From: Eledone cirrhosa
Taxonomy: Eukaryota
DNA: 64,000 nt
NCBI GenBank assembly: GCA_964016885.1
Contig: OZ024763.1
Location: 7,316,001 to 7,380,000, forward strand
Reading direction: 5' to 3'
The translations under genes and the position numbers were made by a program. The notes below the pieces were generated by a model that ran no database searches, was not told the DNA's origin, and was given only the letters and a program-made list of their open reading frames with translations. Below, one piece after another: positions 14,451 through 62,137 of the stretch (within the stretch, counting starts at the first letter, position 1; each line of letters begins with the position of its first letter).

Positions 14451-14522
14451 CCGTTTTGGTGACCCAGTGGTATGTATTAGAGGTGAATGCTTTCCTGGTC
14501 GTGAGTTCGATCTGAATCAGGA
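14451..14522 (+). ncRNA. Double-hairpin tRNA-like element, degenerate
   Basis: Upstream aaagtaggttgatatatatt, A-box-like tgacccagtgg, B box gagttcgatc, tcctggt/atcagga stem. Confidence 0.45.
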
Positions 14523-14589
14523 TATAATCTCACTAAATCTTACATTTTTTCTCTTATAAAATGGAAAAGTAAGACCCCCTTAATGTATG

Positions 14590-14654
14590 TCTTCATTGAA
14601 AACCAAACCAGGTCCTCCACCGTCTCTAATAACCCCCACTAGGCCACCGTAACA
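14590..14654 (-). ncRNA. Double-hairpin tRNA-like element, degenerate, convergent partner
   Basis: Minus strand ggtggcctagtgg...agagacggtggaggacctggt, with the upstream TATA and conserved block on the minus strand. Confidence 0.45.
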
Positions 14655-14782
14655 ATAACAGATACAGAACTAATTGAAATTTAATATATATGAAACTACT
14701 TTCTATTAGCAAGCTAAATAGATGTGGTTACATTCATGCTGGTTCCGTCTTATTAACACTACATAGGACGGTGTCTTGGCAG

Positions 14783-14972
14783 AGGCGGTGTATTAGCAGA
14801 ATCGGTAGAGGTTCAAACGCTATGCTTCCCAGCATAGAGTTACGGCCCTTGCCATTCTGAGTTCAAATCCCGCCGAGGTTAACTTTGCCTTTCATCTTTA
14901 CAGGGTCGATAAAATAAAGTACCAGTAATACACTGGGATAATTGCTGGCCTTGTGCCAAAATTAGAAACAAT
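14783..14972 (+). mobile_element. Near full-length tRNA-derived SINE (also ~51640-51829)
   Basis: A box tagcagaatcggtag, B box gagttcaaatccc, central ctttgcctttcatc...gggtcgataaaataaagtaccag resembling the conserved Meta-type SINE core, and tail agaaacaat. Confidence 0.9.
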
Positions 14973-15894
14973 ATAACATATAAATATTTATTTATATATA
15001 TATGTGTGTGTGTTTTATTTGAACGTACAACTTCGCTATATAAATCTGTTTTTATTTGTTAATAATTACATAAATGTAACTCTACAAACCCTGCTAAGGA
15101 TTGAAACCCTGACTACACATTTACAGCAACAACATAATAATTTCTGGTTTAAAATAACCTTGTGTAATTCTTGGTAGAGATTGAACCTCGTCACTTTATC
15201 TCACTGTTTAGTCTTTCCAATTAACACCCTATATAAAGGCAGTTTGTTCTGACTTCACAGCTGATGTTCACAGTTGTCGAATAATTACCACCACTCATGC
15301 TAAACACACTGCCAGTTAGATCTGTGCAGCGATGAGGGAAGGTCGTGTTACTTCTACCGCTAATGAACAACATACATATGTTATCCATTAGAGAACAATA
15401 CACAAGAGAAAGAATTAAATTGAGAATGTCAATCTATGGAGACATCTTACAATATTTTTTGGGATGTAAGACCCCCTTAGTTTTAAGAACAAATGTACTG
15501 AAACACGAAATAAGAAATTAATTGAAATGGAACACACATAGATTTCAAGACATGTTTATTTTCAAGACAAAATGATTGGGGGAAGTGTAAATATGCAGCT
15601 ATCCTTGTTCATGGAGTGTGTGTATATATATGTATATATATATATGTTTATTATATTCGTACCTTTAAGGAAAGGGAAGACGGTTTTTTATTTTTTTATT
15701 TTTTTGTTTTTTTTTTGTTTTTTCGGGTAGAAAAGTACCCCTTATTCCCCACCCCACAAAAAAATATATTTCGAATATGTATATTTTAATTGAAAGGTGG
15801 CTAACCATGTTAAAGGCAAAAAGTAGCAAGTGAGACGATAGGAATAATAATTTACCTAGCTAAATGCAAACAAATTTTAAATTATCGATGAATG

Positions 15895-16260
15895 ATATGA
15901 GCGACACCACGTAGAGTATTCCGTAGGGACATGGACGCACGACAAAAAATAAAACAAAAGAATTAAGAAATCTGTCTTGAGAATAAAGATGTAAAAACTT
16001 AGAAATTACAACTTGGGAGGAGATAAAACAAAGGGGAGACATGATAGAAATATTTAAGATGATGGAAGGACTTGACATTACGGAAGAAAATGTAAATCTA
16101 AGAAGAGGATACCATTATACTGTTTATAAGATACAATGCTCTAAAGACATCAGAAAATATATATTTCTCAAAGAGATATTAGTGAATGGAATAGTTTAAA
16201 TGATGGAGTAGACGACACAACAGTAAATGATGATAAAAATATATGACAGATGAAGAACGA
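15895..16260 (+). mobile_element. Degenerate CR1/L2-clade LINE 3' fragment (paralogs ~19640-20050, 23930-24350, 30760-31140, 52735-53130, 56495-56900, 59915-60320)
   Basis: Translates to RGDMIEIFKMMEG and EWNSL, matching the CR1-type RT tail (TTLEERRLRGDMIEVFKI...WNSL). Confidence 0.8.
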
Positions 16261-18186
16261 ATGAATAGATTAAATAATATTTGTGATGCTGAGTAAAAGT
16301 GAGCAGAAAGCATTGTAGTGAATTTGATCATGCTATGGCAATAAGAAAAGAACTCAGTAAATCTCGCAACGCTTCAAAATATATCAACTAACTTAGAATG
16401 GTATCAATTGGCTTGGACATAACTACAGTTTAGTCGTCACTCCATGAATTTGTTCACGGTGAATATATTTTACATGAAAATATACAGAGATCCGTCTTCC
16501 ATGATGTAGATTACGATAATGTCGGTGAAACTCATTAATTTACTTCAAATACTTTCATTATTGTATGTAGTTAAGTTCGTTAAAGATTTCGTGTACTAAA
16601 AACTTACGTACTGTGTTTGTAGTCGGCTAAATATAAACTTGAAAATTCGTTAATTATGCCTGTCTTCGAATCTCATGTTGATAAAGTATAATATCAATCA
16701 GAATAATGTCATAGATTTTCTACATAATCGGAATGTCATTTCTAAAACTACGAATTACTTGAAAAATTACAAAACACAACACAAAAACAATGTTTACCTT
16801 CGAAAGTATATGTCTATAAAATATGTATTATTAGAAGTAAGTTTTAAGAAAACGAGTCAGATGTGAGAGGAGGGGCATTAAACTATATTTATGTCGTGAA
16901 AAATGTCTAACTTCAGACATTAAATTGCGGCTGAGATTCTTTCTGCTATCGAGTGTTCCTTTGAACGTCAATTTTTAAATATTTGTCTCTCTTTAAAGAT
17001 GGATTATCTTTTGAAAAACTAATGTTAGATTATTCGTGGTTGGTCTGTGTGGTTTGTTTTAAAATAGAATCTGTCTCATAGACAGGTCAAATTTGATCAA
17101 GTCGAACATGTCTGTAAAACGAAATATTGCGTAAAAGACACACCTTATGTTTATCTCGGGTATTGCGGTAGATATCCTGATGTCTCCAGTTTGTAAAGTA
17201 ATCCACAAAGCAAAAGACAACATCCAGTTAACCTTGGTAATCCAGTTTCGCCGTAGCCGCCATTTGCAATAGAATATAAGCAGAAACAAAAACAAAAGGC
17301 CACACTGGACAGTTAATGTATTGAAAATCACAATAAAAATAAAACTACTGAATAAAAATGTCTTACTGTCATTATTTATTTTTTTTCATTTATTTATTGC
17401 TAACACATACTTTAACTAATATATATATATATATATATACACACATAGATAAACTCTCTTTGTTTGTAACTGAGGCAGAAGTCAGAATTTTACGGTGAGA
17501 ATTCGATCGATTAAATTGATCCCACTATGTGACTGGTACTATATTTTATCTCTCCAAAAATAAAAATGTTAAATTAATCAGGGCCAGATTTTCACCGAGA
17601 TGAGAACACAAAAAGGTGAAGTAATATCAATTAAAAATTTATGTGTTATTATTTTATCATTTAGTTACAAAGTCGTGTGAGACTTGGTAGTTAAGTATTT
17701 AATGTAGTTTGTGGTGCTGTCAGGAGTTCAATATTTAGCTGCGGATATAGAATTTCTTTTATTTTTAAGAAACGAAAAACATACATATCGCTATTTAGTT
17801 GAAATTGTATAAAATTACTGCAAAACATATCATTGTAGGTTCAGATCTTACACTGCTACATATATTATCTATATAGAAATCGGGTTTAACAATTTACGGG
17901 CGTATTGTACGAGGTGGGAATATTTCACACACACACAAACCAGGTATGATAGATTTAAAGTTAGTAAATATTATTGTAGACGGGGACATTGTAGGTTCAA
18001 ATCAACCGTAGAGCGATAAGAAACAAAGTGAAGATTTAATTTATCAAAGACCCAGGAGGATGAAAGACAGAGTCGACCATTTTAGTATTTATAACATTGA
18101 GTAAGGCATGAACGCCACCACATCAATTTTGCTTGAAAATAGTAAAGTAGGTTTATAAATATTAATTTTCAATCACTTTTTGTAGC

Positions 18187-18258
18187 AAGTTTCGGTGGCC
18201 TTGTGGAAGGTATGGGAGACGGTGAAGATCCTGGTGTCGGGTTCAATCTTGGCCAGGA
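18187..18258 (+). ncRNA. Double-hairpin tRNA-like Pol III element
   Basis: TTTATAAATA at ~18152, A box tggccttgtgg, B box ggttcaatc, stems gtttc/gagac and tcctggt/gccagga, T7 at ~18289. Confidence 0.65.
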
Positions 18259-18332
18259 CTAGAGGGGTCTTAGTGAAAAAATTAAAAGTTTTTTTATTTT
18301 ATCTCTAGTAAAATGAAAAGCGTTAGTGTAGT

Positions 18333-18404
18333 TCCTGGTCGAGATTGAACCCTAGACCAGGATCTTCACCGTCTCTATCACATACCATTAGCCCACAGAG
18401 ACTG
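18333..18404 (-). ncRNA. Double-hairpin tRNA-like Pol III element, convergent partner
   Basis: Stems gtctct/agagac and a perfect tcctggtc/gaccagga, TATA on the minus strand at ~18429-18438, T4 downstream. Confidence 0.65.
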
Positions 18405-18864
18405 CCACAAAAGTACTATGAACATTTATATTTATAAAGCAACTTTTCTATATCCAATCAAACTTGATGTGGTGGCCTTCATGTCTTTTTCTATGTTATT
18501 CGCACTACCAACGACCGACCTTGTATTTTATTCCTCTGGAGCTTTCAGAAACCCACCTTGTATTTCCAAGCATAATAGATGTTGGGGCATTCATGCCTTT
18601 CTCAGCATTATCAATACTTCAAAAGGATCGACATGGGATTTTTATTCTTCTGGCAATTTCAGAAAATATATCTTCACTTACTTTCTCTAAGGTTCATTTC
18701 ATCTTCCAACTCGATAATCTGCAGTGGCCTTCTTCAACTGTCATACCTCACTATTAAATTTATTGATGTCCTTCGTTAAAAATAACCTACTGTAATTCTT
18801 GATAGAGATTCAACCCTATCACTTTATCTCACTATTTATTCAGGGACCAAGATCGGAGAATGTT

Positions 18865-18925
18865 GATAAGGGCAGAAGATTGTATCCTTATTTGGTCCGA
18901 CTTTCCAGTTAACCCGGTATAAAAA
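18865..18925 (+). promoter_or_regulatory. GATA + CArG box + TATA promoter-like module (paralogs 22322-22383, 30023-30081, ~55719-55779, ~59145-59205, ~62585-62645; TATA only at 15230 and ~52085)
   Basis: GATAAG at 18865, a perfect CC(A/T)6GG (CCTTATTTGG) at 18886-18895 and TATAAAAA at 18918. Spacing is conserved between diverged subunits. Confidence 0.5.
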
Positions 18926-21634
18926 TGGCACTATGTTGGGACTTAACGCTAAACACGTGATGTTCACCGTTGTCAGCTAAACACACTGCCAGTTTGCTAT
19001 CTGCAGCGGTGAAAGAAGGTCGTGTTATTTCTACCTCTCACATACCACATACATTCTTTTATCGGTTAGATAACCATATAGAAGAGATAGAATGAATATG
19101 AGAATGTCAGTCTTTTAAAAGTATAGTTTATTATATTAGAGCAAAATCTTGAATTAACGATAGTTTGTGACACTAAACGTAAAATGGACGAAGCAACAAT
19201 ACGAACATTGTAAAACAAATTAATTATTATAAGAAGGAGAAATGATTGCATCTTCAAGGGCCACACAATCTATTGAAAATCGAAATGAGATATTGATTGA
19301 AATGGAACACTCACGGAGACATCATACGGCATTTTTCGGAATATATTGTTTCGAGGAAGAGTTATAAATAGGGATATACTTATACATGGCTAGTACGAAC
19401 ATATATAATTATCATATTCGTATCTTGGATATATAAGACGCCAGCAGGTTTTAACATCGAATTTTTATGTAAAAATGTGTCTCTTGTTTCACCCACCCCA
19501 ACAAAATCGGAATATGTAACAATTTGAATTTAAGGTTAACTAACCATCTCACATAAAAAAACCCACAACACCAAGTCGGATTATAGGAATGATAAAATAT
19601 TACTATACCTACCAACATACAGAAATATTGAAACTCTAGATAAATGATATGTGTGATACTACTTAGAATATTATTTGCAGGTATGGTCACCCGACTTCCG
19701 AAAGGAGAGAGAAGCTATTGAAGGAATCCAGAGAAGAAAGAAGCATGAAATACCAGAATTATTAACAAATCTGTCTTGACAAGAAAGGTGTAAAAATCTA
19801 GGAATTACAACTTTGGAGGAGATAAAACTAAGGGGAGACACGACAGAAATATGTATGATAATGAAAGGACTTGAAAATCAGAAGAAAATGTAAGAAGAGG
19901 ACACCATTATACTGTTTATAAGATACAATGCTCTAAAGACATCAGAAAATATATATTTCTCAAAGAGATATTAGTGAATTGAATAGTTTAAATGATGGAG
20001 TAGACGACACAACAGTAAATGATTATAAAAAGATATGACAGATGAAGAACGAATGAATAGATTGAAATATTTGTGATGCTGAGTAAAAGTGAGCGGAAAG
20101 CATTGTCGTGAATTTGAACTTGCTATGCCTTCCAATCTCATATTGAAAACGTATAATATTAATCAGGATAATGTCATAGATTTTCTACATGATCGGAATG
20201 ACAATTCTAAAACTACGAATTACTAGAAAAGGTGAAAATATAAACAAAACACAACATTATATCTCTATAAAATATGTATTATTGGAGGATTTGAGGAAAG
20301 GAATCGGATATGAGAGGAGGGGCATTAAACTATATTTATGTCGTGAAAAATGTCTAACTTCAGACATTAAATTGTGGCTGAGATTCTTTCTGCCATCGAG
20401 TGTTCCTTTGAACGTCAGTTTTTAAATATTTGTCTCTTTAAAGATGGATTATCTTTTGTAAAACTAATTTTAGATTATTCATGGTTGGTCTGTGTGGTTT
20501 GTTTTGAAATAGCATCTCTGTCTCGTCGACAGGTCAAATTTGATCAAGTCGAACACAAGTCTTTAAAGCGAAATATTGCGTAAAAGACAGACCTTATGTT
20601 TATCTCGGGTATTGCGGTAAATATCCTGATGTCTCAAGTTTGTAAAGTAATCCAAGAAGCAAAAGACAACATCCAGTAAACCTTGGTAATAATCCAGTTT
20701 CTCCGTAGCCGCCATTTGCAATAGAAAATAAGAAGAAACAAAAACAAAAGGCACACTGGGCAGTTAATGTATTGAAAATCATAATAAAAATAAAACTACT
20801 GAATAAAAATGTCTTACTTTTATTATTTAATTTGTTTCATTTAATTATTGCTAACACATACTTTAATATATATGTATATATTTACACATACAGATACACT
20901 CTCTTTGTTTGTAACTGAGGCAAAAGGCAGAAATTTACGGGGAGAATTCGATCATTTAAATTGGTCCCACTATGTGACTCGTACTATATTTTATCTATCC
21001 AAAAATAAAAATGTTAAATTAATCAGGGCCAGATTTTCACCGAGATGAGAACACAAAAAGGTGAAGTAATATCAATTAAAAATTTATGTGTTATTATTTT
21101 ATCATTTAGTTACAAAGTCGTGTGAGACTTGGTAGTTAAGTATTTAATGTAGTTTGTGGTGCTGTCAGGAGTTCAATATTTAGCTGCGGATATAGAATTT
21201 CTTTTATTTTTAAGAAACGAAAAACATATACATATCGCTATTTAGTTGAAATTGTGTAAAATTACTGCAAAACATATCATTGTAGGTTCAGATCTTAAAC
21301 TGCTACATATATTATCTATATAGAAATCGTGTTTAACAATTTACGGGCGTATTGTACGAGGTGGCTATATTTCACACACACACAAACCAGGTATGATAGA
21401 TTTAAAGTTAGTAAATATTATTGTAGACGAGGACATTGTAGGTTCAAATCAACCGTAGAGCGATAAGAAACAAAGTGAAGATTTAATTTATCAAAGACCC
21501 AGGAGGATGAAAGACAAAGTCGACCCTTTTTAGTATTTATAACATTGAGTAAGGCATGAACGCCACCACATCAATTTTGCTTGAAAATAGTAAAGTAGAT
21601 TTATAAATATTAATTTTCCATAACTTTTTGTAGC

Positions 21635-21706
21635 AAGTTTCGGTGGCCTGGTGGAAGGTATGAGAGACGGTGAAGATACTGGTCTCGGGTTCAATCTTGG
21701 CCAAGA
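21635..21706 (+). ncRNA. Double-hairpin tRNA-like Pol III element
   Basis: TATA at ~21600, A box tggcctggtgg, B box ggttcaatc. Confidence 0.65.
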
Positions 21707-21780
21707 CTAGAGGTGTCTTAATGAAAAAATTCAAAAATTTTTCATTTTATCTCTAGTAAAATGAAAAACGTTAGTGTAGT

Positions 21781-21852
21781 TCCTGGCCGAGATTGAACCA
21801 GAGACTAGGATCTTCACCGTCTCTATCACATACCATTAGCCCACAGAGACTG
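21781..21852 (-). ncRNA. Double-hairpin tRNA-like Pol III element, convergent partner
   Basis: Homologous to 18333-18404. Confidence 0.65.
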
Positions 21853-23059
21853 CCACAAAAGTACTATGAAAATTTATATTTATAAAGCTACTTTTCTATA
21901 TCCAAGCAAACTTGATGTGGTGGCCTTCATGTCTTTCTCCATGTTATTCGCACTACCAACGACCGACCTTGTATTTTATTAATCTGGAGCTTTCAGAAAC
22001 CTACCTTGTATTTCCAAGCATAATAGATGTTGTGGCATTCATGCCCTTCTCAGCATTATCAATACTTCGAAAGGGTCGACATTGGATTTTTATTCTTCTG
22101 GCAATTTGAGAAAATATATCTTCACTTACTTTCTCTAAGGTTCATTTCATCCTACAACCCGATAATCTGCAGTGGCCTTCTTCAACTGTCATACCTCACT
22201 ATTAAATTTATTGATGTCCTTCGTTAAAAATAACCTACTGTAATTCTTGATAGAGATTCAACCCTATCACTTTATCTCACTGCTTATTCAGGGACCAAGG
22301 TCCTCAATCTCAGAGAATATTGATAAGGAGAGCAGATTGTATCCTTATTTGGTCCGTCTTTCCAGTTAACACGGTATATAAATGGTACTTTGTTGGGATT
22401 TAACACTAAACACGTGACGTTCACCGTTGTCAGCTAAACACACTGCCAGTTTGCTATCTGCAGCGGTGAAAGAAGGTCGTGTTATTTCTACATCTCACAT
22501 ACATTGTTTTATTCATTAGATAACAATATAGAAGATAAAGAATGAATGTGAGAATGTCAGTCTTTTAAAAGTACAATTTATGATATTAAAGCAAAATCTT
22601 GAATTAACGATAGTTTGTGAAACTAAAGTTAAAATGGACGAAGCAACAATTGTATGACAAATTGTTTATTGATAAGAAGGAGAAATGATTGCATCTTCAA
22701 CGGCAATACAATCTATTGAAAATCGAACACTTACAGAGACCTCATACAGGATTTTTCGGAATACATTTTGAAGAAGAGTTAAAAATAGGGAGATACATAT
22801 ACATGGCTAGTATATACTTTAATTATCATATTTGTATCTTGAACGTATAAGACGCCAGCAAGTTTTAACATCGAATACTGATGTAAAATTGTGTTTTTTT
22901 GTTTCACCCACCCCCAACAAATGTGGAATATGTATCAATTTGAATTTAAAGGTAGCTAACCATCTCACAGGAAAAGACCACAACACCAAGTCGGATTATA
23001 GGAATGATGAAATATTACTTTACCTACCTAAATACAGAAATATTAAAACTCTAGATAAA

Positions 23060-24484: not shown

Positions 24485-25482
24485 TTTGTAAAATAAAGCA
24501 ATAAGGAAACAACATCATCCAGTAAACCTTAGTAATACTCCAATAACGTCTCGGCCGCCATTTACAGTAGAAAATAGTAAGAAAATTAAGTCACACTCAG
24601 CAGTTAATGCAGTGAAAACAAACAATAAAAATATTATTACTAAATAATTATAATTTCTTACTTTCAATAATTTTTTTCTTTATTAAACACGTAATTTATT
24701 TTAAATTTGTCGTATTATATATATATACTGTTTGTGTGTTTTTGTTTGGCAAATGTCAAGTGATTGACGGGGTGAAGCCGATCGATTAAATTGAACCCAT
24801 AAAATGACTGGTACTCTATTTTTCTTCTCTAAAGTTATAAAATTGTAAATTAATATCGACAGGATTTTCACCTAGAACACAAAGGTGGTGTAATATCATT
24901 TAAAAAATTGGAAATTGAGTTATAAATATAAATGTGTGTTCAGGGCTTAGATGTTCAGTGTGTAACAGGGTTATTGGTATTAAGTAACATAAAATGTCGT
25001 TAGGAGTTCAATATTTAGCTGGGGATATAGAATTTCTTTAAATTATTTCTTGTACCAGTAGCGAACTGGGATCGAAAGCATTATGTTGTTCGGACGAAAG
25101 AAATATATAAGCTTAGCGCAATCTAGTTTGAGTTACGGGACATTACTGCAAAGCACATAACTGTAGGTTCCAATCTCACATTGGTAAATATATAAAAGTG
25201 ACATTTAACAATTTATTTGTAAGTCGCAACAGGATTTAGGTATGGCAGATTTGAAATTAGTGAACATTATTGCAGACGAAGTAATTGTAGGTTCAAATCA
25301 ATACTAGGGCGTTAAGAAATAAAATGAATATTTACTTCATGAAAGAGCCTGAATTATGAAAGACAAAGTCGACCCTTTCTAATCACAGCAACACTAAGAA
25401 AGGCATGAACGCCACCACTTCAATTAATCTTCCAAAATCAAAAGTATGTTTATAAATATTAATTTTTAATATTATTTTGAAG

Positions 25483-25554
25483 CTGTCTTTGTAGCCTAGT
25501 GGGAGGTATGAGAGACGGTGGAGATCCTGGTCTGGGTTTCGATCTTGGCCACGA
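25483..25554 (+). ncRNA. Double-hairpin tRNA-like Pol III element
   Basis: TATA at ~25449, A box tagcctagtgg, stem ctgtctt/gagacgg, B-box-like gtttcgatc. Confidence 0.65.
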
Positions 25555-51177: not shown

Positions 51178-51306
51178 CGGAATTATTGAATGTTCCAATC
51201 TTGCCTATATTGATGAGAAGCTAAGAGAAAACCGAACATCTGCAACAATATTGGTTCCATATTGAAAGTAGGTTGATATATATTCATTTTCAGTGAGGTT
51301 TTACAT

Positions 51307-51378
51307 CCGTTTTGGTGACCCAGTGGTATGTATTAGAGGTGAATGCTTTCCTGGTCGTGAGTTCGATCTGAATCAGGA
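51307..51378 (+). ncRNA. Double-hairpin tRNA-like element, degenerate (duplicate of 14451)
   Basis: Same sequence as copy 1. Confidence 0.45.
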
Positions 51379-51446
51379 TATAATCTCACTAAATCTTACA
51401 TTTTTTTCTCTTATAAAATGGAAAAGTAAGACCCCCTTAATGTATG

Positions 51447-51511
51447 TCTTCATTGAAAACCAAACCAGGTCCTCCACCGTCTCTAATAACCCCCACTAGG
51501 CCACCGTAACA
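51447..51511 (-). ncRNA. Double-hairpin tRNA-like element, degenerate (duplicate of 14590)
   Basis: Same sequence as copy 1. Confidence 0.45.
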
Positions 51512-54291
51512 ATAACAGCTACAGAACTAATTGAAATTTAATATATATGAAACTACTTTCTATTAGCAAGCTAAATAGATGTGGTTACATTCATGCTGGT
51601 TCCGTCTTATTAACACTACATAGGACGGTGTCTTGGCAGAGGCGGTGTATTAGCAGAATCGGTAGAGGTTCAAACGCTATGCTTCCCAGCATAGAGTTAC
51701 GGCCCTTGCCATTCTGAGTTCAAATCCCGCCGAGGTTAACTTTGCCTTTCATCTTTACAGGGTCGATAAAATAAAGTACCAGTAATACACTGGGATAATT
51801 GCTGGCCTTGTGCCAAAATTAGAAACAATATAACATATAAATATTTATTTATATATATATGTGTGTGTTTTATTTGAACGTACAACTTCGCTATATAAAT
51901 CTGTTTTTATTTGTTAATAATTACATAAATGTAACTCTACAAACCCTGCTAAGGATTGAAACCCTGACTACACATTTACAGCAACAACATAATAATTTCT
52001 GGTTTAAAATAACCTTGTGTAATTCTTGGTAGAGATTGAACCTCGTCACTTTATCTCACTGTTTAGTCTTTCCAATTAACACCCTATATAAAGGCAGTTT
52101 GTTCTGACTTCACAGCTGATGTTCACAGTTGTCGAATAATTACCACCACTCATGCTAAACACACTGCCAGTTAGATCTGTGCAGCGACGAGGGAAGGTCG
52201 TGTTACTTCTACCTCTAATGAACAACATACATATGTTATCCATTAGAGAACAATACACAAGAGAAAGAATTAAATTGAGAATGTCAATCTATGGAGACAT
52301 CTTACAATATTTTTTGGGATGTAAGACCCCCTTAGTTTTAAGAACAAATGTACTGAAACACGAAATAAGAAATTAATTGAAATGGAACACACATAGATTT
52401 TAAGACATGTTTATTTTCAAGACAAAATGATTGGGGGAAGTGTAAATATGCAGCTATCCTTGTTCATGGAGTGTGTGTATATATATGTATATATATATAT
52501 GTTTATTATATTCGTACCTTTAAGGAAAGGGAAGACGGTTTTTTATTTTTTTATTTTTTTTGTTTTTTCGGGTAGAAAAGTACCCCTTATTCCCCACCCC
52601 ACAAAAAAATATATTTCGAATATGTATATTTTAATTGAAAGGTGGCTAACCATGTTAAAGGCCAAAAGTAGCAAGTGAGACGATAGGAATAATAATTTAC
52701 CTAGCTAAATGCAAAAAAATTTTAAATTATCGATGAATGATATGAGCGACACCACGTAGAGTATTCCGTAGGGACATGGACGCACGACAGAAAATATTGA
52801 AAGAATCCAGAGAAGAACAAAAAATAAAACAAAAGAATTAAGAAATCTGTCTTGAGAATAAAGATGTAAAAACTTAGAAATTACAACTTGGGAGGAGATA
52901 AAACAAAGGGGAGACATGATAGAAATATTTAAGATGATGGAAGGACTTGACATTACGGAAGAAAATGTAAATCTAAGAAGAGGATACCATTATACTGTTT
53001 ATAAGATACAATGCTCTAAAGACATCAGAAAATATATATTTCTCAAAGAGATATTAGTGAATGGAATAGTTTAAATGATGGAGTAGACGACACAACAGTA
53101 AATGATGATAAAAATATATGACAGATGAAGAACGAATGAATACATTAAAATATTTGTGATGCTGAGTAAAAGTGAGCAGAAAGCATTGTAGTGAATTTGA
53201 TCATGCTATGGCAATAAGAAAAGAACTCAGTAAATCTCGCAACGCTTCAAAATATATCAACTAACTTAGAATGGTATCAATTGGCTTGGACATAACTACA
53301 GTTTAGTCGTCACTCCATGAATTTGTTCACGGTGAATATATTTTACATGAAAATATACAGAGATCCGTCTTCCATGATGTAGATTACGATAATGTCGGTG
53401 AAACTCATTAATTTACTTCAAATACTTTCATTATTGTATGTAGTTAAGTTCGTTAAAGATTTCGTGTACTAAAAACTTACGTACTGTGTTTGTAGTCGGC
53501 TAAATATAAACTTGAAAATTCGTTAATTATGCCTGTCTTCCAATCTCATGTTGATAAAGTATAATATCAATCAGAATAATGTCATAGATTTTCTACATAA
53601 TCGGAATGTCATTTCTAAAACTACGAATTACTTGAAAAATTACAAAACACAACACAAAAACAATGTTTACCTTCGAAAGTATATGTCTATAAAATATGTA
53701 TTATTAGAAGTAAGTTTTAAGAAAACGAGTCAGATGTGAGAGGAGGGGCATTAAACTGTATTTATGTCGTGAAAAATGTCTAACTTCAGACATTAAATTG
53801 CGGCTAAGATTCTTTCTGCTATCGAGTGTTCCTTTGAACGTCAATTTTTAAATATTTGTCTCTCTTTAAAGATGGATTATCTTTTGAAAAACTAATGTTA
53901 GATTATTCGTGGTTGGTCTGTGTGGTTTGTTTTAAAATAGAATCTGTCTCATAGACAGGTCAAATTTGATCAAGTCGAACATGTCTGTAAAACGAAATAT
54001 TGCGTAAAAGACACACCTTATGTTTATCTCGGGTATTGCGGTAGATATCCTGATGTCTCCAGTTTGTAAAGTAATCCACAAAGCAAAAGACAACATCCAG
54101 TTAACCTTGGTAATCCAGTTTCGCCGTAGCCGCCATTTGCAATAGAATATAAGCAGAAACAAAAACAAAAGGCCACACTGGACAGTTAATGTATTGAAAA
54201 TCACAATAAAAATAAAACTACTGAATAAAAATGTCTTACTGTCATTATTTAATTTTTTTCATTTATTTATTGCTAACACATACTTTAACTA

Positions 54292-54322
<31 letters not shown>

Positions 54323-55062
54323 GATAAACTCTCTTTGTTTGTAACTGAGGCAGAAGTCAGAAATTTACGGTGAGAATTCGATCGATTAAATTGATCCCAC
54401 TATGTGACTGGTACTATATTTTATCTCTCCAAAAATAAAAATGTTAAATTAATCAGGGCCAGATTTTCACCGAGATGAGAACACAAAAAGGTGAAGTAAT
54501 ATCAATTAAAAATTTATGTGTTATTATTTTATCATTTAGTTACAAAGTCGTGTGAGACTTGGTAGTTAAGTATTTAATGTAGTTTGTGGTGCTGTCAGGA
54601 GTTCAATATTTAGCTGCGGATATAGAATTTCTTTTATTTTTAAGAAACGAAAAACATACATATCGCTATTTAGTTGAAATTGTATAAAATTACTGCAAAA
54701 CATATCATTGTAGGTTCAGATCTTACACTGCTACATATATTATCTATATAGAAATCGTGTTTAACAATTTACGGGCGTATTGTACGAGGTGGGAATATTT
54801 CACACACACACAAACCAGGTATGATAGATTTAAAGTTAGTAAATATTATTGTAGACGGGGACATTGTAGGTTCAAATCAACCGTAGAGCGATAAGAAACA
54901 AAGTGAAGATTTAATTTATCAAAGACCCAGGAGGATGAAAGACAGAGTCGACCCCTTTTAGTATTTATAACATTGAGTAAGGCATGAACGCCACCACATC
55001 AATTTTGCTTGAAAATAGTAAAGTAGGTTTATAAATATTAATTTTCAATCACTTTTTGTAGC

Positions 55063-55134
55063 AAGTTTCGGTGGCCTTGTGGAAGGTATGGGAGACGGTG
55101 AAGATCCTGGTGTCGGGTTCAATCTTGGCCAGGA
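55063..55134 (+). ncRNA. Double-hairpin tRNA-like Pol III element (duplicate of 18187)
   Basis: Same motifs. Confidence 0.65.
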
Positions 55135-55208
55135 CTAGAGGGGTCTTAGTGAAAAAATTAAAAGTTTTTTTATTTTATCTCTAGTAAAATGAAAAGCGTT
55201 AGTGTAGT

Positions 55209-55280
55209 TCCTGGTCGAGATTGAACCGTAGACCAGGATCTTCACCGTCTCTATCACATACCATTAGCCCACAGAGACTG
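55209..55280 (-). ncRNA. Double-hairpin tRNA-like Pol III element (duplicate of 18333)
   Basis: Same motifs. Confidence 0.65.
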
Positions 55281-58200
55281 CCACAAAAGTACTATGAACA
55301 TTTATATTTATAAAGCAACTTTTCTATATCCAAGCAAACTTGATGTGGTGGCCTTCATGTCTTTTTCTATGTTATTCGCACTACCAACGATGGAGCTTTC
55401 AGAAACCCACCTTGTATTTCCAAGCATAATAGATGTTGTGGCATTCATGCCTTTCTCAGCATTATCAATACTTCAAAAGGATCGACATGGGATTTTTATT
55501 CTTCTGGCAATTTCAGAAAATATATCTTCACTTACTTTCTCTAAGGTTCATTTCATCCTCCAACTCGATAATCTGCAGTGGCCTTCTTCAACTGTCATAC
55601 CTCACTATTAAATTTATTGATGTCCTTCGTTAAAAATAACCTACTGTAATTCTTGATAGAGATTCAACCCTATCACTTTATCTCACTATTTATTCAGGGA
55701 CCAAGATCGGAGAATATTGATAAGGGCAGAAGATTGTATCCTTATTTGGTCCGACTTTCCAGTTAACCCGGTATAAAAATGGCACTATGTTGGGACTTAA
55801 CGCTAAACACGTGATGTTCACCGTTGTCAGCTAAACACACTGCCAGTTTGCTATCTGCAGCGGTGAAAGAAGGTCGTGTTATTTCTACCTCTCACATACC
55901 ACATACATTCTTTTATCGGTTAGATAACCATATAGAAGAGATAGAATGAATATGAGAATGTCAGTCTTTTAAAAGTATAGTTTATTATATTAGAGCAAAA
56001 TCTTGAATTAACGATAGTTTGTGACACTAAACGTAAAATGGACGAAGCAACAATACGAACATTGTAAAACAAATTAATTATTATAAGAAGGAGAAATGAT
56101 TGCATCTTCAAGGGCCACACAATCTATTGAAAATCGAAATGAGATATTGATTGAAATGGAACACTCACGGAGACATCATACGGCATTTTTCGGAATATAT
56201 TGTTTCGAGGAAGAGTTATAAATAGGGATATACTTATACATGGCTAGTACGAACATATATAATTATCATATTCGTATCTTGGATGTATAAGACGCCAGCA
56301 GGTTTTAACATCGAATTTTTATGTAAAAATGTGTCTCTTGTTTCACCCACTCCAACAAAATCGGAATATGTAACAATTTGAATTTAAGGTTAACTAACCA
56401 TCTCACATAAAAAAACCCACAACACCAAGTCGGATTATAGGAATGATAAAATATTACTATACCTACCAACATACAGAAATATTGAAACTCTAGATAAATG
56501 ATATGTGTGATACTACTTAGAATATTATTTGCAGGTATGGTCACCCGACTTCCGAAAGGAGAGAGAAGCTATTGAAGGAATCCAGAGAAGAAAGAAGCAT
56601 GAAATACCAGAATTATTAACAAATCTGTCTTGACAAGAAAGGTGTAAAAATCTAGGAATTACAACTTTGGAGGAGATAAAACTAAGGGGAGACACGACAG
56701 AAATATGTATGATAATGAAAGGACTTGAAAATCAGAAGGAAATGTAAGAAGAGGACACCATTATACTGTTTATAAGATACAATGCTCTAAAGACATCAGA
56801 AAATATATATTTCTCAAAGAGATATTAGTGAATTGAATAGTTTAAATGATGGAGTAGACGACACAACAGTAAATGATTATAAAAAGATATGACAGATGAA
56901 GAACGAATGAATAGATTGAAATATTTGTGATGCTGAGTAAAAGTGAGCGGAAAGCATTGTCGTGAATTTGAACTTGCTATGCCTTCCAATCTCATATTGA
57001 AAACGTATAATATTAATCAGGATAATGTCATAGATTTTCTACATGATCGGAATGACAATTCTAAAACTACGAATTACTAGAAAAGGTGAAAATATAAACA
57101 AAACACAACATTATATCTCTATAAAATATGTATTATTGGAGGATTTGAGGAAAGGAATCGGATATGAGAGGAGGGGCATTAAACTATATTTATGTCGTGA
57201 AAAATGTCTAACTTCAGACATTAAATTGTGGCTGAGATTCTTTCTGCCATCGAGTGTTCCTTTGAACGTCAGTTTTTAAATATTTGTCTCTTTAAAGATG
57301 GATTATCTTTTGTAAAACTAATTTTAGATTATTCATGGTTGGTCTGTGTGGTTTGTTTTGAAATAGCATCTCTGTCTCGTCGACAGGTCAAATTTGATCA
57401 AGTCGAACACAAGTCTTTAAAGCGAAATATTGCGTAAAAGACAGACCTTATGTTTATCTCGGGTATTGCGGTAAATATCCTGATGTCTCAAGTTTGTAAA
57501 GTAATCCAAGAAGCAAAAGACAACATCCAGTAAACCTTGGTAATAATCCAGTTTCTCCGTAGCCGCCATTTGCAATAGAAAATAAGAAGAAACAAAAACA
57601 AAAGGCACACTGGGCAGTTAATGTATTGAAAATCATAATAAAAATAAAACTACTGAATAAAAATGTCTTACTTTTATTATTTAATTTGTTTCATTTAATT
57701 ATTGCTAACACATACTTTAATATATATGTATATATTTACACATACAGATACACCCTCTTTGTTTGTAACTGAGGCAAAAGGCAGAAATTTACGGGGAGAA
57801 TTCGATCATTTAAATTGGTCCCAGTATGTGACTCGTACTATATTTTATCTATCCAAAAATAAAAATGTTAAATTAATCAGGGCCAGATTTTCACCGAGAT
57901 GAGAACACAAAAAGGTGAAGTAATATCAATTAAAAATTGAGGTGTTATTATTTTATCATTTAGTTACAAAGTCGTGTGAGACTTGGTAGTTAAGTATTTA
58001 ATGTAGTTTGTGGTGCTGTCAGGAGTTCAATATTTAGCTGCGGATATAGAATTTCTTTTATTTTTAAGAAACGAAAAACATATACATATCGCTATTTAGT
58101 TGAAATTGTATAAAATTACTGCAAAACATATCATTGTAGGTTCAGATCTTACACTGCTACATATATTATCTATATAGAAATCGGGTTTAACAATTTACGG

Positions 58201-58488
58201 GCGTATTGTACGAGGTGGGAATATTTCACACACACACAAACCAGGTATGATAGATTTCAAGTTAGTAAATATTATTGTAGACGGGGACATTGTAGGTTCA
58301 AATCAACCGTAGAGCGATAAGAAACAAAGTGAAGATTTAATTTATCAAAGACCCAGGAGGATGAAAGACAGAGTCGACCCCTTTTAGTATTTATAACATT
58401 GAGTAAGGCATGAACGCCACCACATCAATTTTGCTTGAAAATAGTAAAGTAGGTTTATAAATATTAATTTTCAATCACTTTTTGTAGC

Positions 58489-58560
58489 AAGTTTCGGTGG
58501 CCTTGTGGAAGGTATGGGAGACGGTGAAGATCCTGGTGTCGGGTTCAATCTTGGCCAGGA
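58489..58560 (+). ncRNA. Double-hairpin tRNA-like Pol III element in the extra subunit
   Basis: Same sequence as 55063-55134. Confidence 0.65.
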
Positions 58561-58634
58561 CTAGAGGGGTCTTAGTGAAAAAATTAAAAGTTTTTTTATT
58601 TTATCTCTAGTAAAATGAAAAGCGTTAGTGTAGT

Positions 58635-58706
58635 TCCTGGTCGAGATTGAACCGTAGACCAGGATCTTCACCGTCTCTATCACATACCATTAGCCCACAG
58701 AGACTG
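58635..58706 (-). ncRNA. Double-hairpin tRNA-like Pol III element in the extra subunit
   Basis: Same sequence as 55209-55280. Confidence 0.65.
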
Positions 58707-61700
58707 CCACAAAAGTACTATGAACATTTATATTTATAAAGCAACTTTTCTATATCCAAGCAAACTTGATGTGGTGGCCTTCATGTCTTTTTCTATGTTA
58801 TTCGCACTACCAACGATGGAGCTTTCAGAAACCCACCTTGTATTTCCAAGCATAATAGATGTTGTGGCATTCATGCCTTTCTCAGCATTATCAATACTTC
58901 AAAAGGGTCGACATGGGATTTTTATTCTTCTGGCAATTTCAGAAAATATATCTTCACTTACTTTCTCTAAGGTTCATTTCATCCTCCAACTCGATAATCT
59001 GCAGTGGCCTTCTTCAACTGTCATACCTCACTATTAAATTTATTGATGTCCTTCGTTAAAAATAACCTACTGTAATTCTTGATAGAGATTCAACCCTATC
59101 ACTTTATCTCACTATTTATTCAGGGACCAAGATCGGAGAATGTTGATAAGGGCAGAAGATTGTATCCTTATTTGGTCCGACTTTCCAGTTAACCCGGTAT
59201 AAAAATGGCACTATGTTGGGACTTAACGCTAAACACGTGATGTTCACCGTTGTCAGCTAAACACACTGCCAGTTTGCTATCTGCAGCGGTGAAAGAAGGT
59301 CGTGTTATTTCTACCTCTCACATACATTCTTTTATCGGTTAGATAACCATATAGAAGAGATAGAATGAATATGAGAATGTCAGTCTTTTAAAAGTATAGT
59401 TTATTATATTAGAGCAAAATCTTGAATTAACGATAGTTTGTGACACTAAACGTAAAATGGACGAAGCAACAATACGAACATTGTAAAACAAATTAATTAT
59501 TATAAGAAGGAGAAATGATTGCATCTTCAAGGGCCACACAATCTATTGAAAATCGAAATGAGATATTGATTGAAATGGAACACTCACGGAGACATAATAC
59601 GGCATTTTTCGGAATATATTGTTTTGAGGAAGAGTTATAAATAGGGATATACTTATACATGGCTAGTACAAACATATATAATTATCATATTCGTATCTTG
59701 GATATATAAGACGCCAGCAGGTTTTAACATCGAATTTTTATGTAAAAATGTGTCTCTTGTTTCACCCACCCCAACAAAATCGGAATATGTAACAATTTGA
59801 ATTTAAGGTTAACTAACCATCTCACATAAAAAAACCCACAACACCAAGTCGGATTATAGGAATGATAAAATATTACTATACCTACCAACATACAGAAATA
59901 TTGAAACTCTAGATAAATGATATGTGTGATACTACTTAGAATATTATTTGCAGGTATGGTCACCCGACTTCCGAAAGGAGAGAGAAGCTATTGAAGGAAT
60001 CCAGAGAAGAAAGAAGCATGAAATACCAGAATTATTAACAAATCTGTCTTGACAAGAAAGGTGTAAAAATCTAGGAATTACAACTTTGGAGGAGATAAAA
60101 CTAAGGGGAGACACGACAGAAATATTTATGATAATGAAAGGACTTGAAAATCAGAAGAAAATGTAAGAAGAGGACACCATTATACTGTTTATAAGATACA
60201 ATGCTCTAAAGACATCAGAAAATATATATTTCTCAAAGAGATATTAGTGAATTGAATAGTTTAAATGATGGAGTAGACGACACAACAGTAAATGATTATA
60301 AAAAGATATGACAGATGAAGAACGAATGAATAGATTGAAATATTTGTGATGCTGAGTAAAAGTGAGCGGAAAGCATTGTCGTGAATTTGAACTTGCTATG
60401 CCTTCCAATCTCATATTGAAAACGTATAATATTAATCAGGATAATGTCATAGATTTTCTACATGATCGGAATGACAATTCTAAAACTACGAATTACTAGA
60501 AAAGGTGAAAATATAAACAAAACACAACATTATATCTCTATAAAATATGTATTATTGGAGAATTTGAGGAAAGGAATCGGATATGAGAGGAGGGGCATTA
60601 AACTATATTTATGTCGTGAAAAATGTCTAACTTCAGACATTAAATTGTGGCTGAGATTCTTTCTGCCATCGAGTGTTCCTTTGAACGTCAGTTTTTAAAT
60701 ATTTGTCTCTTTAAAGATGGATTATCTTTTGTAAAACTAATTTTAGATTATTCATGGTTGGTCTGTGTGGTTTGTTTTGAAATAGCATCTCTGTCTCGTC
60801 GACAGGTCAAATTTGATCAAGTCGAACACAAGTCTTTAAAACGAAATATTGCGTAAAAGACACACCTTATGTTTATCTCGGGTATTGCGGTAAATATCCT
60901 GATGTCTCAAGTTTGTAAAGTAATCCAAGAAGCAAAAGACAACATCCAGTAAACCTTGGTAATAATCCAGTTTCTCCGTAGCCGCCATTTGCAATAGAAA
61001 ATAAGAAGAAACAAAAAGAAAAGGCACACTGGACAGTTAATGTATTGAAAATCATAATAAAAATAAAACTACTGAATAAAAATGTCTTACTTTTATTATT
61101 TAATTTGTTTCATTTATTTATTGCTAACACATACTTTAATATATATGTATATATTTACACATACAGATACACCCTCTTTGTTTGTAACCGAGGCAAAAGG
61201 CAGAAATTTACGGGGAGAATTCGATCATTTAAATTGGTCCCAGTATGTGACTCGTACTATATTTTATCTATCCAAAAATAAAAATGTTAAATTAATCAGG
61301 GCCAGATTTTCACCGAGATGAGAACACAAAAAGGTGAAGTAATATCAATTAAAAATTGAGGTGTTATTATTTTATCATTTAGTTACAAAGTCGTGTGAGA
61401 CTTGGTAGTTAAGTATTTAATGTAGTTTGTGGTGCTGTCAGGAGTTCAATATTTAGCTGCGGATATAGAATTTCTTTTATTTTTAAGAAACGAAAAACAT
61501 ATACATATCGCTATTTAGTTGAAATTGTGTAAAATTACTGCAAAACATATCATTGTAGGTTCAGATCTTAAACTGCTACATATATTATCTATATAGAAAT
61601 CGTGTTTAACAATTTACGGGCGTATTGTACGAGGTGGGAATATTTCACACACACACAGACACACACACAAACCAGGTATGATAGATTTAAAGTTAGTAAA

Positions 61701-61919
61701 TATTATTGTAGACGGGGACATTGTAGGTTCAAATCAACCGTAGAGCGATAAGAAACAAAGTGAAGATTTAATTTATCAAAGACCCAGGAGGATGAAAGAC
61801 AAAGTCGACCCTTTTTAGTATTTATAACATTGAGTAAGGCATGAACGCCACCACATCAATTTTGCTTGAAAATAGTAAAGTAGATTTATAAATATTAATT
61901 TTCCATAACTTTTTGTAGC

Positions 61920-61991
61920 AAGTTTCGGTGGCCTGGTGGAAGGTATGAGAGACGGTGAAGATACTGGTCTCGGGTTCAATCTTGGCCAAGA
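61920..61991 (+). ncRNA. Double-hairpin tRNA-like Pol III element (duplicate of 21635)
   Basis: Same motifs. Confidence 0.65.
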
Positions 61992-62065
61992 CTAGAGGTG
62001 TCTTAATGAAAAAATTCAAAAATTTTTCATTTTATCTCTAGTAAAATGAAAAACGTTAGTGTAGT

Positions 62066-62137
62066 TCCTGGCCGAGATTGAACCAGAGACTAGGATCTTC
62101 ACCTTCTCTAACACATACCATTAGCCCACAGAGACTG
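62066..62137 (-). ncRNA. Double-hairpin tRNA-like Pol III element (duplicate of 21781)
   Basis: Same motifs, with a substitution in the first stem. Confidence 0.6.

What the first reader, a model, noticed from the sequence alone, without database searches (positions are those of the whole stretch)
14451..62137. Multi-copy family of ~72-nt double-hairpin tRNA-like genes (candidate new Pol III ncRNA class)
Seen: 19 copies (11 in copy 1, 8 in copy 2) of an element with approximate consensus ccgtctc-gG-TRGCCTAGTGGTAGGT-rtt-aGAGACGG-tgaaga-TCCTGGTC-tgggGTTCRATCtc-GRCCAGGA. Each is tRNA-length, with a D-loop/A box and T-loop/B box, an upstream TATA about 30-35 nt away and a T4-T7 run about 15-35 nt downstream. 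The 5' and 3' ends do not pair as an acceptor stem and there is no anticodon arm. Instead the 5' 7 nt pair with the middle (closing the D arm), and a second stem closes the T arm. There is no SINE body, tail or TSD, and the 5' flank (up to ~300 bp) is co-duplicated, so these spread as DNA-level gene duplicates and not by retroposition. Established: TATA, A/B boxes and oligo-T are Pol III signals. Inference: a tRNA-derived structured RNA that keeps the D-loop/T-loop elbow but cannot decode or be aminoacylated.
Basis: partly seen in the sequence, partly recalled or inferred. Interest (0 to 1): 0.85.

Follow-up and report, generated by a model that had tools for sequence, protein, structure and literature searches.

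The report
Transcribed tRNA-Asn-derived double-hairpin gene family
Thousands of small genes, likely descended from an asparagine tRNA, keep polymerase III start and stop signals and left stray copies that begin exactly at the predicted start, so they were likely expressed as a ~100-nt RNA predicted to fold into two hairpins rather than a working tRNA; some copies ride inside a DNA transposon.

Summary
All 19 copies are real; 18 form nine tail-to-tail pairs. They belong to a genome-wide family (3,474 matches to the 27-bp TATA zone, control 0) with no ARAGORN or Rfam hit. Both ends match this genome's tRNA-Asn(GTT) acceptor strands; the old anticodon arm now pairs with those strands, giving two predicted hairpins. 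Best new evidence: 7 of 90 and 10 of 43 dispersed copies lack the promoter and begin at the purine 30 nt after TATA; several end at the oligo-T and are fused to SINE fragments, one inside a 17-bp duplication. These look like retrocopies of a Pol III transcript of about 93-114 nt with its leader uncut. The TATA zone and box A/B core evolve 2-5 times slower than spacers. The fold shows no covariation in 88 divergent copies, and all 19 window copies lack box-B C61. Spread is by tandem and segmental duplication and by capture in a hAT-type MITE (14-bp TIR, 8-bp TSD). No RNA data were available. Verdict: a new, likely expressed, BC1/snaR-like tRNA-derived family; selection on the fold and a function are unproven.

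The parts
14408..14550 (+). gene unit, TATA zone to T-run (tRNA position 1 at 14453); degenerate
14565..14703 (-). gene unit (position 1 at 14653); degenerate, partner of 14453+
18143..18295 (+). gene unit (predicted start 18182, position 1 at 18189)
18316..18447 (-). gene unit (predicted start 18408, position 1 at 18402); vestigial acceptor stem 6 of 7
21591..21742 (+). gene unit (position 1 at 21637)
21764..21895 (-). gene unit (position 1 at 21850)
25440..25577 (+). gene unit (position 1 at 25485)
25687..25824 (-). gene unit (position 1 at 25779); an identical body at L236 aligns end to end with tRNA-Asn
29041..29189 (+). gene unit (position 1 at 29086); head-to-tail with 29247+
29202..29335 (+). 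gene unit (position 1 at 29247); its subfamily has a promoter-less copy at L365
29357..29495 (-). gene unit (position 1 at 29450)
51264..51407 (+). duplicate of 14453+
51422..51560 (-). duplicate of 14653-
55019..55171 (+). duplicate of 18189+
55192..55323 (-). duplicate of 18402-
58445..58597 (+). duplicate of 18189+
58618..58749 (-). duplicate of 18402-
61876..62027 (+). duplicate of 21637+
62049..62180 (-). duplicate of 21850-
18106..18127 (+). upstream motif about 60-80 nt before the start (example); shared by most window-type copies, unlike the motif before U6 genes
17991..18003 (+). upstream box-B-like motif (example), repeated 100-350 nt upstream of plus-strand genes
31130..31212 (-). 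orphan promoter: upstream motif and TATA zone without the RNA body
16661..20127 (.). ~3.45-kb tandem unit holding one inverted gene pair (example)

Best explanation
This is a multi-thousand-copy gene family, likely derived from a tRNA-Asn(GTT) gene and likely transcribed by RNA polymerase III into a 93-114-nt RNA that is predicted to fold into two hairpins and would not work as a tRNA. Steps: (1) shown in sequence: a conserved 29-bp TATA zone, box A, a box B core and an oligo-T flank a body colinear with tRNA-Asn. (2) Inferred from retrocopies: transcription starts at the purine 30 nt after TATA and ends at the first T4-T7 run. (3) Predicted: the rewritten anticodon arm pairs with the leader and 5' acceptor strand (P1, closing the D arm) and with the 3' acceptor strand (P3, closing the T arm). 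This would remove the substrate for RNase P, tRNase Z, CCA addition and aminoacylation, which fits retrocopies that keep the leader. (4) Shown: the genes multiply as DNA, by inverted and tandem duplication, segmental duplication and capture of one tail-to-tail pair in a hAT-type MITE whose copies then decay. (5) Inferred: selection keeps the loci transcribed rather than keeping an exact fold. The most likely role is an abundant, unprocessed, non-decoding tRNA decoy of the BC1/snaR kind that binds La or tRNA-loop-binding proteins; this step is untested and I put it at about 0.3 on its own.
For: Acceptor strands match tRNA-Asn at 6 of 7 and 5 of 7 (17.1 bits, against -1.6 or less for the other isotypes scored); the 10-nt leader matches one Asn gene at 9 of 10. 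U6 genes of this genome have TATA at -30, which set the predicted start before any retrocopy was seen. Of 90 dispersed copies, 68 keep the TATA zone, 7 begin exactly at the predicted start, 1 at tRNA position 1, and none in columns 10-35. L295 and L297 end at the T5 run and L276 at T4; L297 is fused to a truncated repeat and the whole is flanked by a 17-bp duplication with 1 mismatch. Of 43 window-type hits, 10 begin at the start without a TATA zone, one of them 66 of 70 identical to the 29247+ subfamily. In 88 cluster copies, A/T promoter columns carry 3.9 substitutions against 9.9 elsewhere (p 3e-5) and G/C columns 7.6 against 10.7 (p 0.03). TATA-zone identity is 88%, spacer 50%, body 67%, flanks 43-59%. 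Private changes in MITE arm A are even across these regions (0.86, 0.80, 0.85 per site), so the zone is not simply hard to mutate. A body-only HMM found TATA upstream in 98 of 109 hits.
Against: No RNA evidence of present-day expression; retrocopies show past germline transcription only. Box B lacks C61 in 19 of 19 window copies and in 83 of 88 cluster copies. MITE arm B also shows fewer private changes in the TATA zone (0.52 against 0.82-1.12 per site), and both MITE arms show slower A/T promoter columns, so part of the rate difference may be ascertainment or sequence context. Only a few isotypes were compared, and the whole-length profile put Asn first by a thin margin (11.8 against 10.1, with an offset error in that script). 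A clear TSD was seen for only 1 of the 7 start-exact copies in the first set. 23 of 88 cluster copies carry internal gaps. Nothing here tests the decoy role.
Confidence: 0.55

Rival explanations
1. Transcribed but functionless for the host. Promoter-competent units are kept because active Pol III units duplicate more readily (for example through fork stalling and recombination), and the family is otherwise a satellite and MITE passenger.
For: MITE-borne copies decay evenly. Many deleted copies, orphan promoters and body-only satellites exist. No covariation. Observed pairing equals what independent columns give: 0.837 against 0.833 for P1 and 0.738 against 0.735 for P3.
Against: TATA zone, box A and box B core stay conserved across subfamilies whose flanks are near alignment noise. 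Promoter-less copies come from several subfamilies.
Confidence: 0.18
2. One reading: a structured RNA whose double-hairpin fold is itself selected. It would act as a D-loop/T-loop elbow mimic, or be cut by RNase P at the base of the T hairpin into a ~45-nt and a ~35-nt RNA, as in double-hairpin hyperprocessing of tRNA.
For: P1 and P3 have pairing probability above 0.5 in 59% and 57% of 88 copies, the acceptor stem in 1%. In P1, pair-keeping transitions outnumber pair-breaking ones 30 to 14 (p 0.02). T-loop and D-loop nucleotides are slow. A double-helix fold of tRNA cut by RNase P in vitro is described in PMC4033280 (passages).
Against: 0 of 21 pairs covary (best p 0.02, E 0.44); paired columns 9.5 against unpaired 9.9 substitutions, p 0.31. 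P3 runs 10 keep to 16 break, and the decaying MITE arm B shows the same P1 bias, 10 to 3. The slow loop nucleotides are also the box A/B promoter bases. 6 of 11 window copies fold no better than shuffles at z -2.
Confidence: 0.15
3. The selected function is at the DNA level: TBP/TFIIIC-bound arrays act as chromatin boundaries or nuclear anchors, and the RNA is a by-product.
For: The most conserved part is the untranscribed TATA zone. Extra box-B-type 9-mers lie upstream of 6 of 6 plus-strand genes in copy 1; 11 occur in 10.4-35 kb against a shuffled mean of 4.9, maximum 10. TFIIIC architectural roles appear in the search listing.
Against: The extra motif is absent upstream of 5 of 5 minus-strand genes. 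Terminators are kept and transcripts appear to have been retroposed repeatedly.
Confidence: 0.09
4. A retroelement proper: a bodiless SINE, or the tRNA-like part of a TRIMp3/Helenus LTR.
For: Promoter-less dispersed copies exist. One head-to-tail array on C4 has a purine tract before TG and a CA end.
Against: 68 of 90 dispersed copies keep the untranscribed TATA zone; 21 of 30 carry the inverted partner. The promoter-less copies share no body or tail. The TG start and purine tract are missing in window-type units, no TGG primer site follows the CA, and short motifs of this family were not found in the Helenus supplement.
Confidence: 0.03

Closest known systems
snaR RNAs of great apes (PMC3045588; abstract start and passages read)
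   Same: Pol III RNA of about 117 nt with internal A/B boxes, remodelled by short internal duplications between the boxes, spread by segmental duplication into tandem clusters.
   Different: snaR comes from Alu/7SL and has about 30 genes with shown expression and an NF90 partner. This family likely comes from tRNA-Asn, has thousands of copies, a TATA zone, inverted pairs and a DNA-transposon carrier; expression is only inferred.
BC1 RNA and 4.5SH RNA of rodents (recalled; the two look-ups returned nothing)
   Same: As recalled: BC1 is a tRNA-Ala-derived Pol III RNA refolded away from the cloverleaf, with upstream promoter elements and retrocopies; 4.5SH genes sit in multi-kilobase tandem units.
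   Different: BC1 is a single gene with an A-rich domain; 4.5SH is B1-derived. No sequence relation was tested.
Small-RNA/LINE chimeras and tailless retropseudogenes (bioRxiv 10.1101/2025.02.02.635956, passages; PMC5322556, abstract)
   Same: A full-length small RNA lies 5' of a truncated retroelement, in sense, flanked by a TSD, as seen at L297.
   Different: Described for mammalian LINE-1; here the partners are other SINE- or LINE-like repeats, not identified by family.
Non-autonomous hAT elements (MITEs) with captured cargo
   Same: 14-bp TIRs starting CAGTG, 8-bp TSDs, internal deletions, 1,555 right ends in the genome.
   Different: The cargo is a tail-to-tail pair of Pol III gene units. 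The window copies are not in the MITE and are only 60-68% identical to its core. No autonomous partner was found.
TRIMp3 / Helenus (PMC10886601; passages, sections 9 and 15 and the one supplement searched)
   Same: Mobile element with a non-functional tRNA-like sequence in which boxes A and B are the conserved part; found in bivalves.
   Different: No direct LTR pair, primer site or 4-bp TSD here.
Double-hairpin model of tRNA and RNase P hyperprocessing (PMC4033280, passages)
   Same: The predicted fold is the alternative pairing of acceptor strands with anticodon-arm strands.
   Different: There it is a minor conformer of real tRNAs; here it is written into the sequence and the cloverleaf is lost.

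Membership tests
tRNA gene (cloverleaf) | Detected by ARAGORN or Rfam RF00005 | tested here: not met
   0 genes; no Rfam match at gathering score
tRNA gene (cloverleaf) | 7-bp acceptor stem forms | tested here: not met
   59% of cells paired, no better than slid controls; probability above 0.5 in 1% of 88 copies; vestige 6 of 7 in 5 of 19 window copies
tRNA gene (cloverleaf) | 5-bp anticodon stem with 7-nt loop | tested here: not met
   39% of cells paired
tRNA-Asn(GTT) descent | Acceptor strands in register match Asn better than other isotypes | tested here: met
   11 of 14, 17.1 bits against -1.6 or less; only Thr, Ile, Leu, Lys and one mobile tRNA-like family were scored
Type 2 Pol III promoter | Box A core | tested here: met
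   T8, G10, G18, G19 carry 0-7 substitutions against about 10 elsewhere
Type 2 Pol III promoter | Canonical box B GTTCRANNC (consensus recalled) | tested here: inconclusive
   0 of 19 window copies and 5 of 88 cluster copies; 27 of 37 and 17 of 32 MITE arms
Type 3 (U6-like) promoter | TATA at -30 | tested here: met
   same spacing as U6 loci L013 and L014
Type 3 (U6-like) promoter | Proximal element shared with U6 genes | tested here: not met
   the motif shared by U6 loci L012-L014 differs from the family's upstream motif, by eye
snaR/BC1/4.5SH-type Pol III ncRNA | Transcribed from a defined start to an oligo-T | tested here: inconclusive
   indirect only: promoter-less copies begin at the predicted start and several end at the T-run
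snaR/BC1/4.5SH-type Pol III ncRNA | Amplified as DNA with flanks | tested here: met
snaR/BC1/4.5SH-type Pol III ncRNA | Present-day tissue expression and protein partner | not testable with these tools
   needs small-RNA sequencing and pull-down
Conserved structured RNA class | Covariation beyond phylogeny | tested here: not met
   0 of 21 pairs in 88 paralogues, tree-shuffled null with 25 replicates; one genome only
SINE | Head plus shared body and tail, flanks unrelated, TSDs | tested here: not met
   68 of 90 dispersed copies keep the upstream zone; promoter-less copies have differing 3' partners
hAT-type MITE (carrier of dispersed pairs) | Short TIRs enclosing the cargo | tested here: met
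   13 complete elements among 25 left ends followed; 8 of 13 hold the genes
hAT-type MITE (carrier of dispersed pairs) | 8-bp TSD | tested here: met
   at least 7 of 8 bases in 11 of 13; most lie in (TA)n, non-trivial cases L120, L109, L130, L131
hAT-type MITE (carrier of dispersed pairs) | Autonomous partner with the same TIR | tested here: inconclusive
   none in 20 of 150 PF05699 loci
hAT-type MITE (window copies) | TIRs around the window pairs | tested here: not met
   no TIR and no MITE end sequence in the window
TRIMp3 / Helenus | Direct LTRs with TG...CA ends, primer site, purine tract, 4-bp TSD | tested here: not met
Hammerhead ribozyme | CUGANGA and GAAA core around stems (recalled) | tested here: not met
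   the linker resembles UGANGA in some copies, but C3 and GAAA are absent (alignment); no Rfam match
Vault RNA | 5' and 3' ends pair as a terminal stem (recalled) | tested here: not met
   ends are not predicted to pair; no Rfam match

The most novel reading that the evidence does not exclude
A lineage-specific RNA class in which a tRNA-Asn gene was hard-wired into the double-hairpin conformer, escaped tRNA processing, became an abundant functional RNA encoded by thousands of convergent gene pairs, and was then broadcast through the genome by a hAT transposon that seeded Pol III promoters chromosome-wide; read-through of the pairs could also feed double-stranded RNA pathways.
Probability: 0.2. 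Interest if true: 0.85.

Novelty: new variant of a known kind. Interest (0 to 1): 0.65.

Why it matters
tRNA-derived Pol III RNAs that leave translation (BC1, snaR, 4.5SH) are known mainly from mammals and in modest gene numbers. A family of thousands of genes in another large animal genome, with a defined start, stop and ancestor, can be tested directly by northern blot, small-RNA sequencing and Pol III ChIP. It also offers a natural case of a tRNA fixed in the double-hairpin fold, and a case of a cut-and-paste transposon carrying Pol III gene units. At ~100 nt with a leader and no poly-A it would be missed by mRNA and miRNA libraries.

Tried and rejected
Expression: no RNA holder listed, which is no evidence either way. 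Four runs of unknown or DNA kind were laid on window 17900-18800; two runs under other organism labels hold near-identical pieces (416 bp with 6 differences, 151 bp with 3), too little to call a species range. The exact 27-mer found nothing in metagenome contigs. The covariance model could not be run on the whole genome, so copy counts rest on patterns and are lower bounds. My first structure string was mis-registered and redone. An RNAalifold consensus gave P1 but a different 3' fold. Upstream flanks of 21 tRNA-Asn genes showed no homology beyond the leader, apart from microsatellite-rich cases. TRIM, hammerhead, vault and SINE-head readings were rejected (see Membership tests). Apparent circular permutation at L170 and L171 turned out to be a unit between two ends of a second hAT-like element. 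No autonomous hAT with the carrier's TIR in 20 loci. Earlier scan findings: nothing returned. Ten literature searches found no description of this family. Subscription papers such as Ohshima and Okada 1994 on octopus tRNA-derived retroposons (seen only as a reference), Repbase and Dfam could not be checked, and bioRxiv supplements were closed.

Full report
Numbering: columns refer to the 124-column alignment. Columns 1-29 are the TATA zone, column 40 is the predicted start, column 46 is tRNA position 1 and column 117 is position 72.

OBSERVATION. An HMM from 10 window copies finds 19 copies at E <= 4e-15 and nothing else below E 0.13: 11 in the first and 8 in the second copy of a ~37-kb duplication. 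They are 13 distinct sequences; the 11 of copy 1 are 53-95% identical, median 66%. Eighteen form nine tail-to-tail pairs, mostly one pair per 3.4-3.8-kb unit; 29086+ is an extra head-to-tail copy. TATA begins 36-37 nt before position 1 in 17 of 19 and 41 nt before in 2; a T4-T7 run follows in all 19. ARAGORN finds no gene. Rfam gives 61 matches at E <= 1, none at gathering score, and none in five other loci. Box B lacks C61 in 19 of 19, and an acceptor-stem vestige remains, 6 of 7 pairs in 5 of 19.

EXTENT. The window is G000:C24:7316001-7380000 of a 3.0-Gb assembly; 68 scored BLAST matches to one subtype were all on C24. The 27-bp TATA zone matches 3,474 places at up to 2 mismatches, control 0. 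In the 30 loci returned, nearly every match is followed by the same body. A 22-mer of the body matches 1,263 places. I saw four settings: window-type clusters of kilobase units on C15, C18, C19, C24, C26 and C160; head-to-tail arrays on C4 and C3; a subfamily often near contig ends with extra 18-19-nt T-loop repeats; and dispersed pairs. In a tree of 43 representatives the MITE A arm groups with the C4 array at 94/89, just below the tool's support mark.

ANCESTOR. In tRNA register the body is colinear with this genome's tRNA-Asn(GTT). The acceptor strands match at 6 of 7 and 5 of 7 (17.1 bits, against -1.6 or less for Thr, Ile, Leu, Lys and one mobile tRNA-like family), the old anticodon loop at 4 of 7, and the 10-nt leader matches 1 of 21 Asn gene flanks at 9 of 10. 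One copy aligns end to end with Asn, beating 300 of 300 shuffles; for other copies a SINE head scored as well or better through box A. The isotype set was incomplete, and a whole-length profile favoured Asn only narrowly. The anticodon stem is gone (39% paired). Its 5' strand is now complementary to the leader and 5' acceptor strand (P1), and its 3' strand plus variable loop to the 3' acceptor strand (P3). This is the double-helix alternative fold discussed for tRNA in PMC4033280 (passages). How the middle was rewritten, perhaps by local inverted copying, is inference.

TRANSCRIPTION. U6 genes here have TATA at -30. The same spacing puts the start at column 40, a purine after a T-run, which I used before looking for retrocopies. 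I then examined 90 of the 100 places listed. Sixty-eight keep the TATA zone, 2 start in columns 6-7, none in columns 10-35, 11 in columns 36-50 and 9 later. Seven start exactly at column 40 with unrelated flanks and one at position 1; a crude uniform model gives P about 4e-10. L295 and L297 end at the T5 run and L276 at T4. L297 is fused to a 5'-truncated repeat and the whole is flanked by a 17-bp duplication with one mismatch; TSD candidates for the others were weak or absent. This matches the full-length small-RNA/retroelement chimeras described in bioRxiv 10.1101/2025.02.02.635956 (passages). For the window's T61 lineage I took 43 of the 100 places listed: 8 of the 30 returned loci, dropping most tandem repeats on C18, and 35 dispersed hits picked by hand. 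Nine are gene-like, 11 start at column 40 without a TATA zone (10 after removing the tandem copy L333; L370 is borderline) and 23 are other or 5'-truncated. L365 is 66 of 70 identical to the subfamily of window 29247+, ends at the T-run and is fused to a SINE-like head. I infer past germline transcription of a 93-114-nt RNA whose leader was usually not removed. No RNA run was available.

SELECTION. In 88 distinct cluster copies, substitutions per column are 2.3 at TATA, 6.2 over box A, 7.1 over box B, 14.1 in the spacer and 21.9 in the tail. By base class, promoter columns are slower: A/T 3.9 against 9.9 (p 3e-5), G/C 7.6 against 10.7 (p 0.03). Over 120 pairs of 25 representatives, identity is 88% in the TATA zone, 50% in the spacer, 67% in the body and 43-59% in flanks, with shuffles near 41%. 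A body-only HMM finds TATA upstream in 98 of 109 hits. Private changes in MITE arm A are even across regions, but arm B is lower in the TATA zone, so some bias remains possible. The fold is not shown to be selected: 0 of 21 pairs covary against a tree-shuffled null, paired columns are no slower than unpaired (9.5 against 9.9), and pairing equals the independent-column expectation. P1 shows a 30:14 excess of pair-keeping transitions (p 0.02), but P3 shows 10:16 and decaying MITE arm B shows 10:3 in P1. The conserved loop bases are also the promoter bases, so RNA and DNA constraint cannot be separated there.

SPREAD. Among the first 30 dispersed loci, 22 keep the upstream TATA and 21 carry the inverted partner. 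The pair sits in a ~720-bp block between (TA)n tracts, often inside a non-autonomous element with 14-bp TIRs. Of 25 left ends followed (30 returned, 350 exact in the genome), 13 are complete, 8 of these hold the genes, and 11 of 13 have 8-bp flanks alike at 7 or 8 positions, four of them outside pure (TA)n. The right end matches 1,555 places. The same internal deletion junction recurs at 8 of 56 sites, so the composite moved as a unit; arm-less parents and stand-alone blocks also occur. This fits a hAT-type MITE that captured a gene pair. The window pairs are 60-68% identical to that core and have no TIR. No autonomous partner was seen in 20 of 150 hAT loci.

MECHANISM. Most likely (0.55): TFIIIB on the TATA zone and TFIIIC on boxes A and B drive a leader-bearing RNA. 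Its acceptor strands are predicted to be tied up by the rewritten anticodon arm, so it would escape RNase P, CCA addition and charging. Selection keeps loci active rather than the exact fold, and a BC1/snaR-like decoy role is the best guess (untested). Rivals: transcribed but selfish or neutral (0.18); a selected double-hairpin RNA (0.15); a DNA-level chromatin element (0.09); SINE or TRIM (0.03).

COMPARISON AND NOVELTY. It works like snaR in being a remodelled Pol III RNA spread by segmental duplication (PMC3045588, passages), and like BC1 and 4.5SH (recalled). It is not a tRNA, SINE, TRIMp3 (PMC10886601), vault RNA or hammerhead. PMC10701932 (passages) treats capture of a non-coding RNA gene by a Helitron as without reported precedent; whether that holds for hAT elements I could not establish. 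PMC4758252 (passages) gave no tRNA-Asn-headed mollusc SINE under the term searched. I rate it a new variant of a known kind, interest 0.65.

Noticed in passing
L135, L137-L145 (e.g. G000:C4:143426266-143429338): A second dispersed element of about 1.7 kb between (TA)n tracts, with a palindromic 5' end, carries a complete cloverleaf tRNA whose anticodon varies (GGC in 6, AGC, GAC, GGT, GTC); 10 of 16 RF00005 hits.
   Followed up: partly
L327, L328, L362, L373, L385, L053, L296, L330, L359, L371: A second group of promoter-less copies begins at columns 49-55, just after the P1 5' strand and near tRNA position 9; could be reverse-transcriptase stops or an RNA cut.
   Followed up: no
window 17835, 17991, 25163, 25287, 28818, 28927 (+): A repeated upstream motif holding a canonical box-B 9-mer, 100-350 nt before plus-strand genes and more conserved than its neighbours; some copies have a GCA-centred 7-mer 15 nt before it, as in a decayed tRNA 3' half.
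   Followed up: partly
window 1-31000 against 35191-64000: A ~37-kb tandem duplication at 88-97% identity; related copies lie at more than ten other places on C24.
   Followed up: partly
L170, L171: One permuted gene block lies between the ends of a second hAT-like element, with an 8-bp duplication at a TCTAGA site.
   Followed up: yes
L187 (C13:34.45 Mb); C18:40.73 Mb; C14:3.50 Mb: Satellites made from the family: a ~94-bp body-only repeat without TATA, a 282-bp array and a 57-bp array.
   Followed up: no
L023-L052: A subfamily, often near contig ends, with two or three tandem 18-19-nt T-loop modules and a further hairpin before the terminator.
   Followed up: partly
L363: A promoter-less copy preceded by what looks like the 3' part of another tRNA and followed by a SINE-like head: a possible three-part chimera.
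   Followed up: no
L237 (C4:22.91 Mb): Head-to-tail ~700-1000-bp units share both ends with the MITE-borne block and hold a second, shorter tRNA-like module.
   Followed up: partly
G000:C1:243.645-243.685 Mb: A tRNA-Thr-type array with dozens of variant copies, including AGT, TGT, ACT and AAT anticodons.
   Followed up: no
G000:C19:31.78-31.84 Mb: An array of about 30 U6 genes with a 1.8-kb period.
   Followed up: no
window 35068 (-) and 36757-37176 (-): A SINE-like head with canonical boxes A and B, and a 139-aa open frame resembling a LINE reverse-transcriptase C-terminal part (resemblance recalled, not searched).
   Followed up: no
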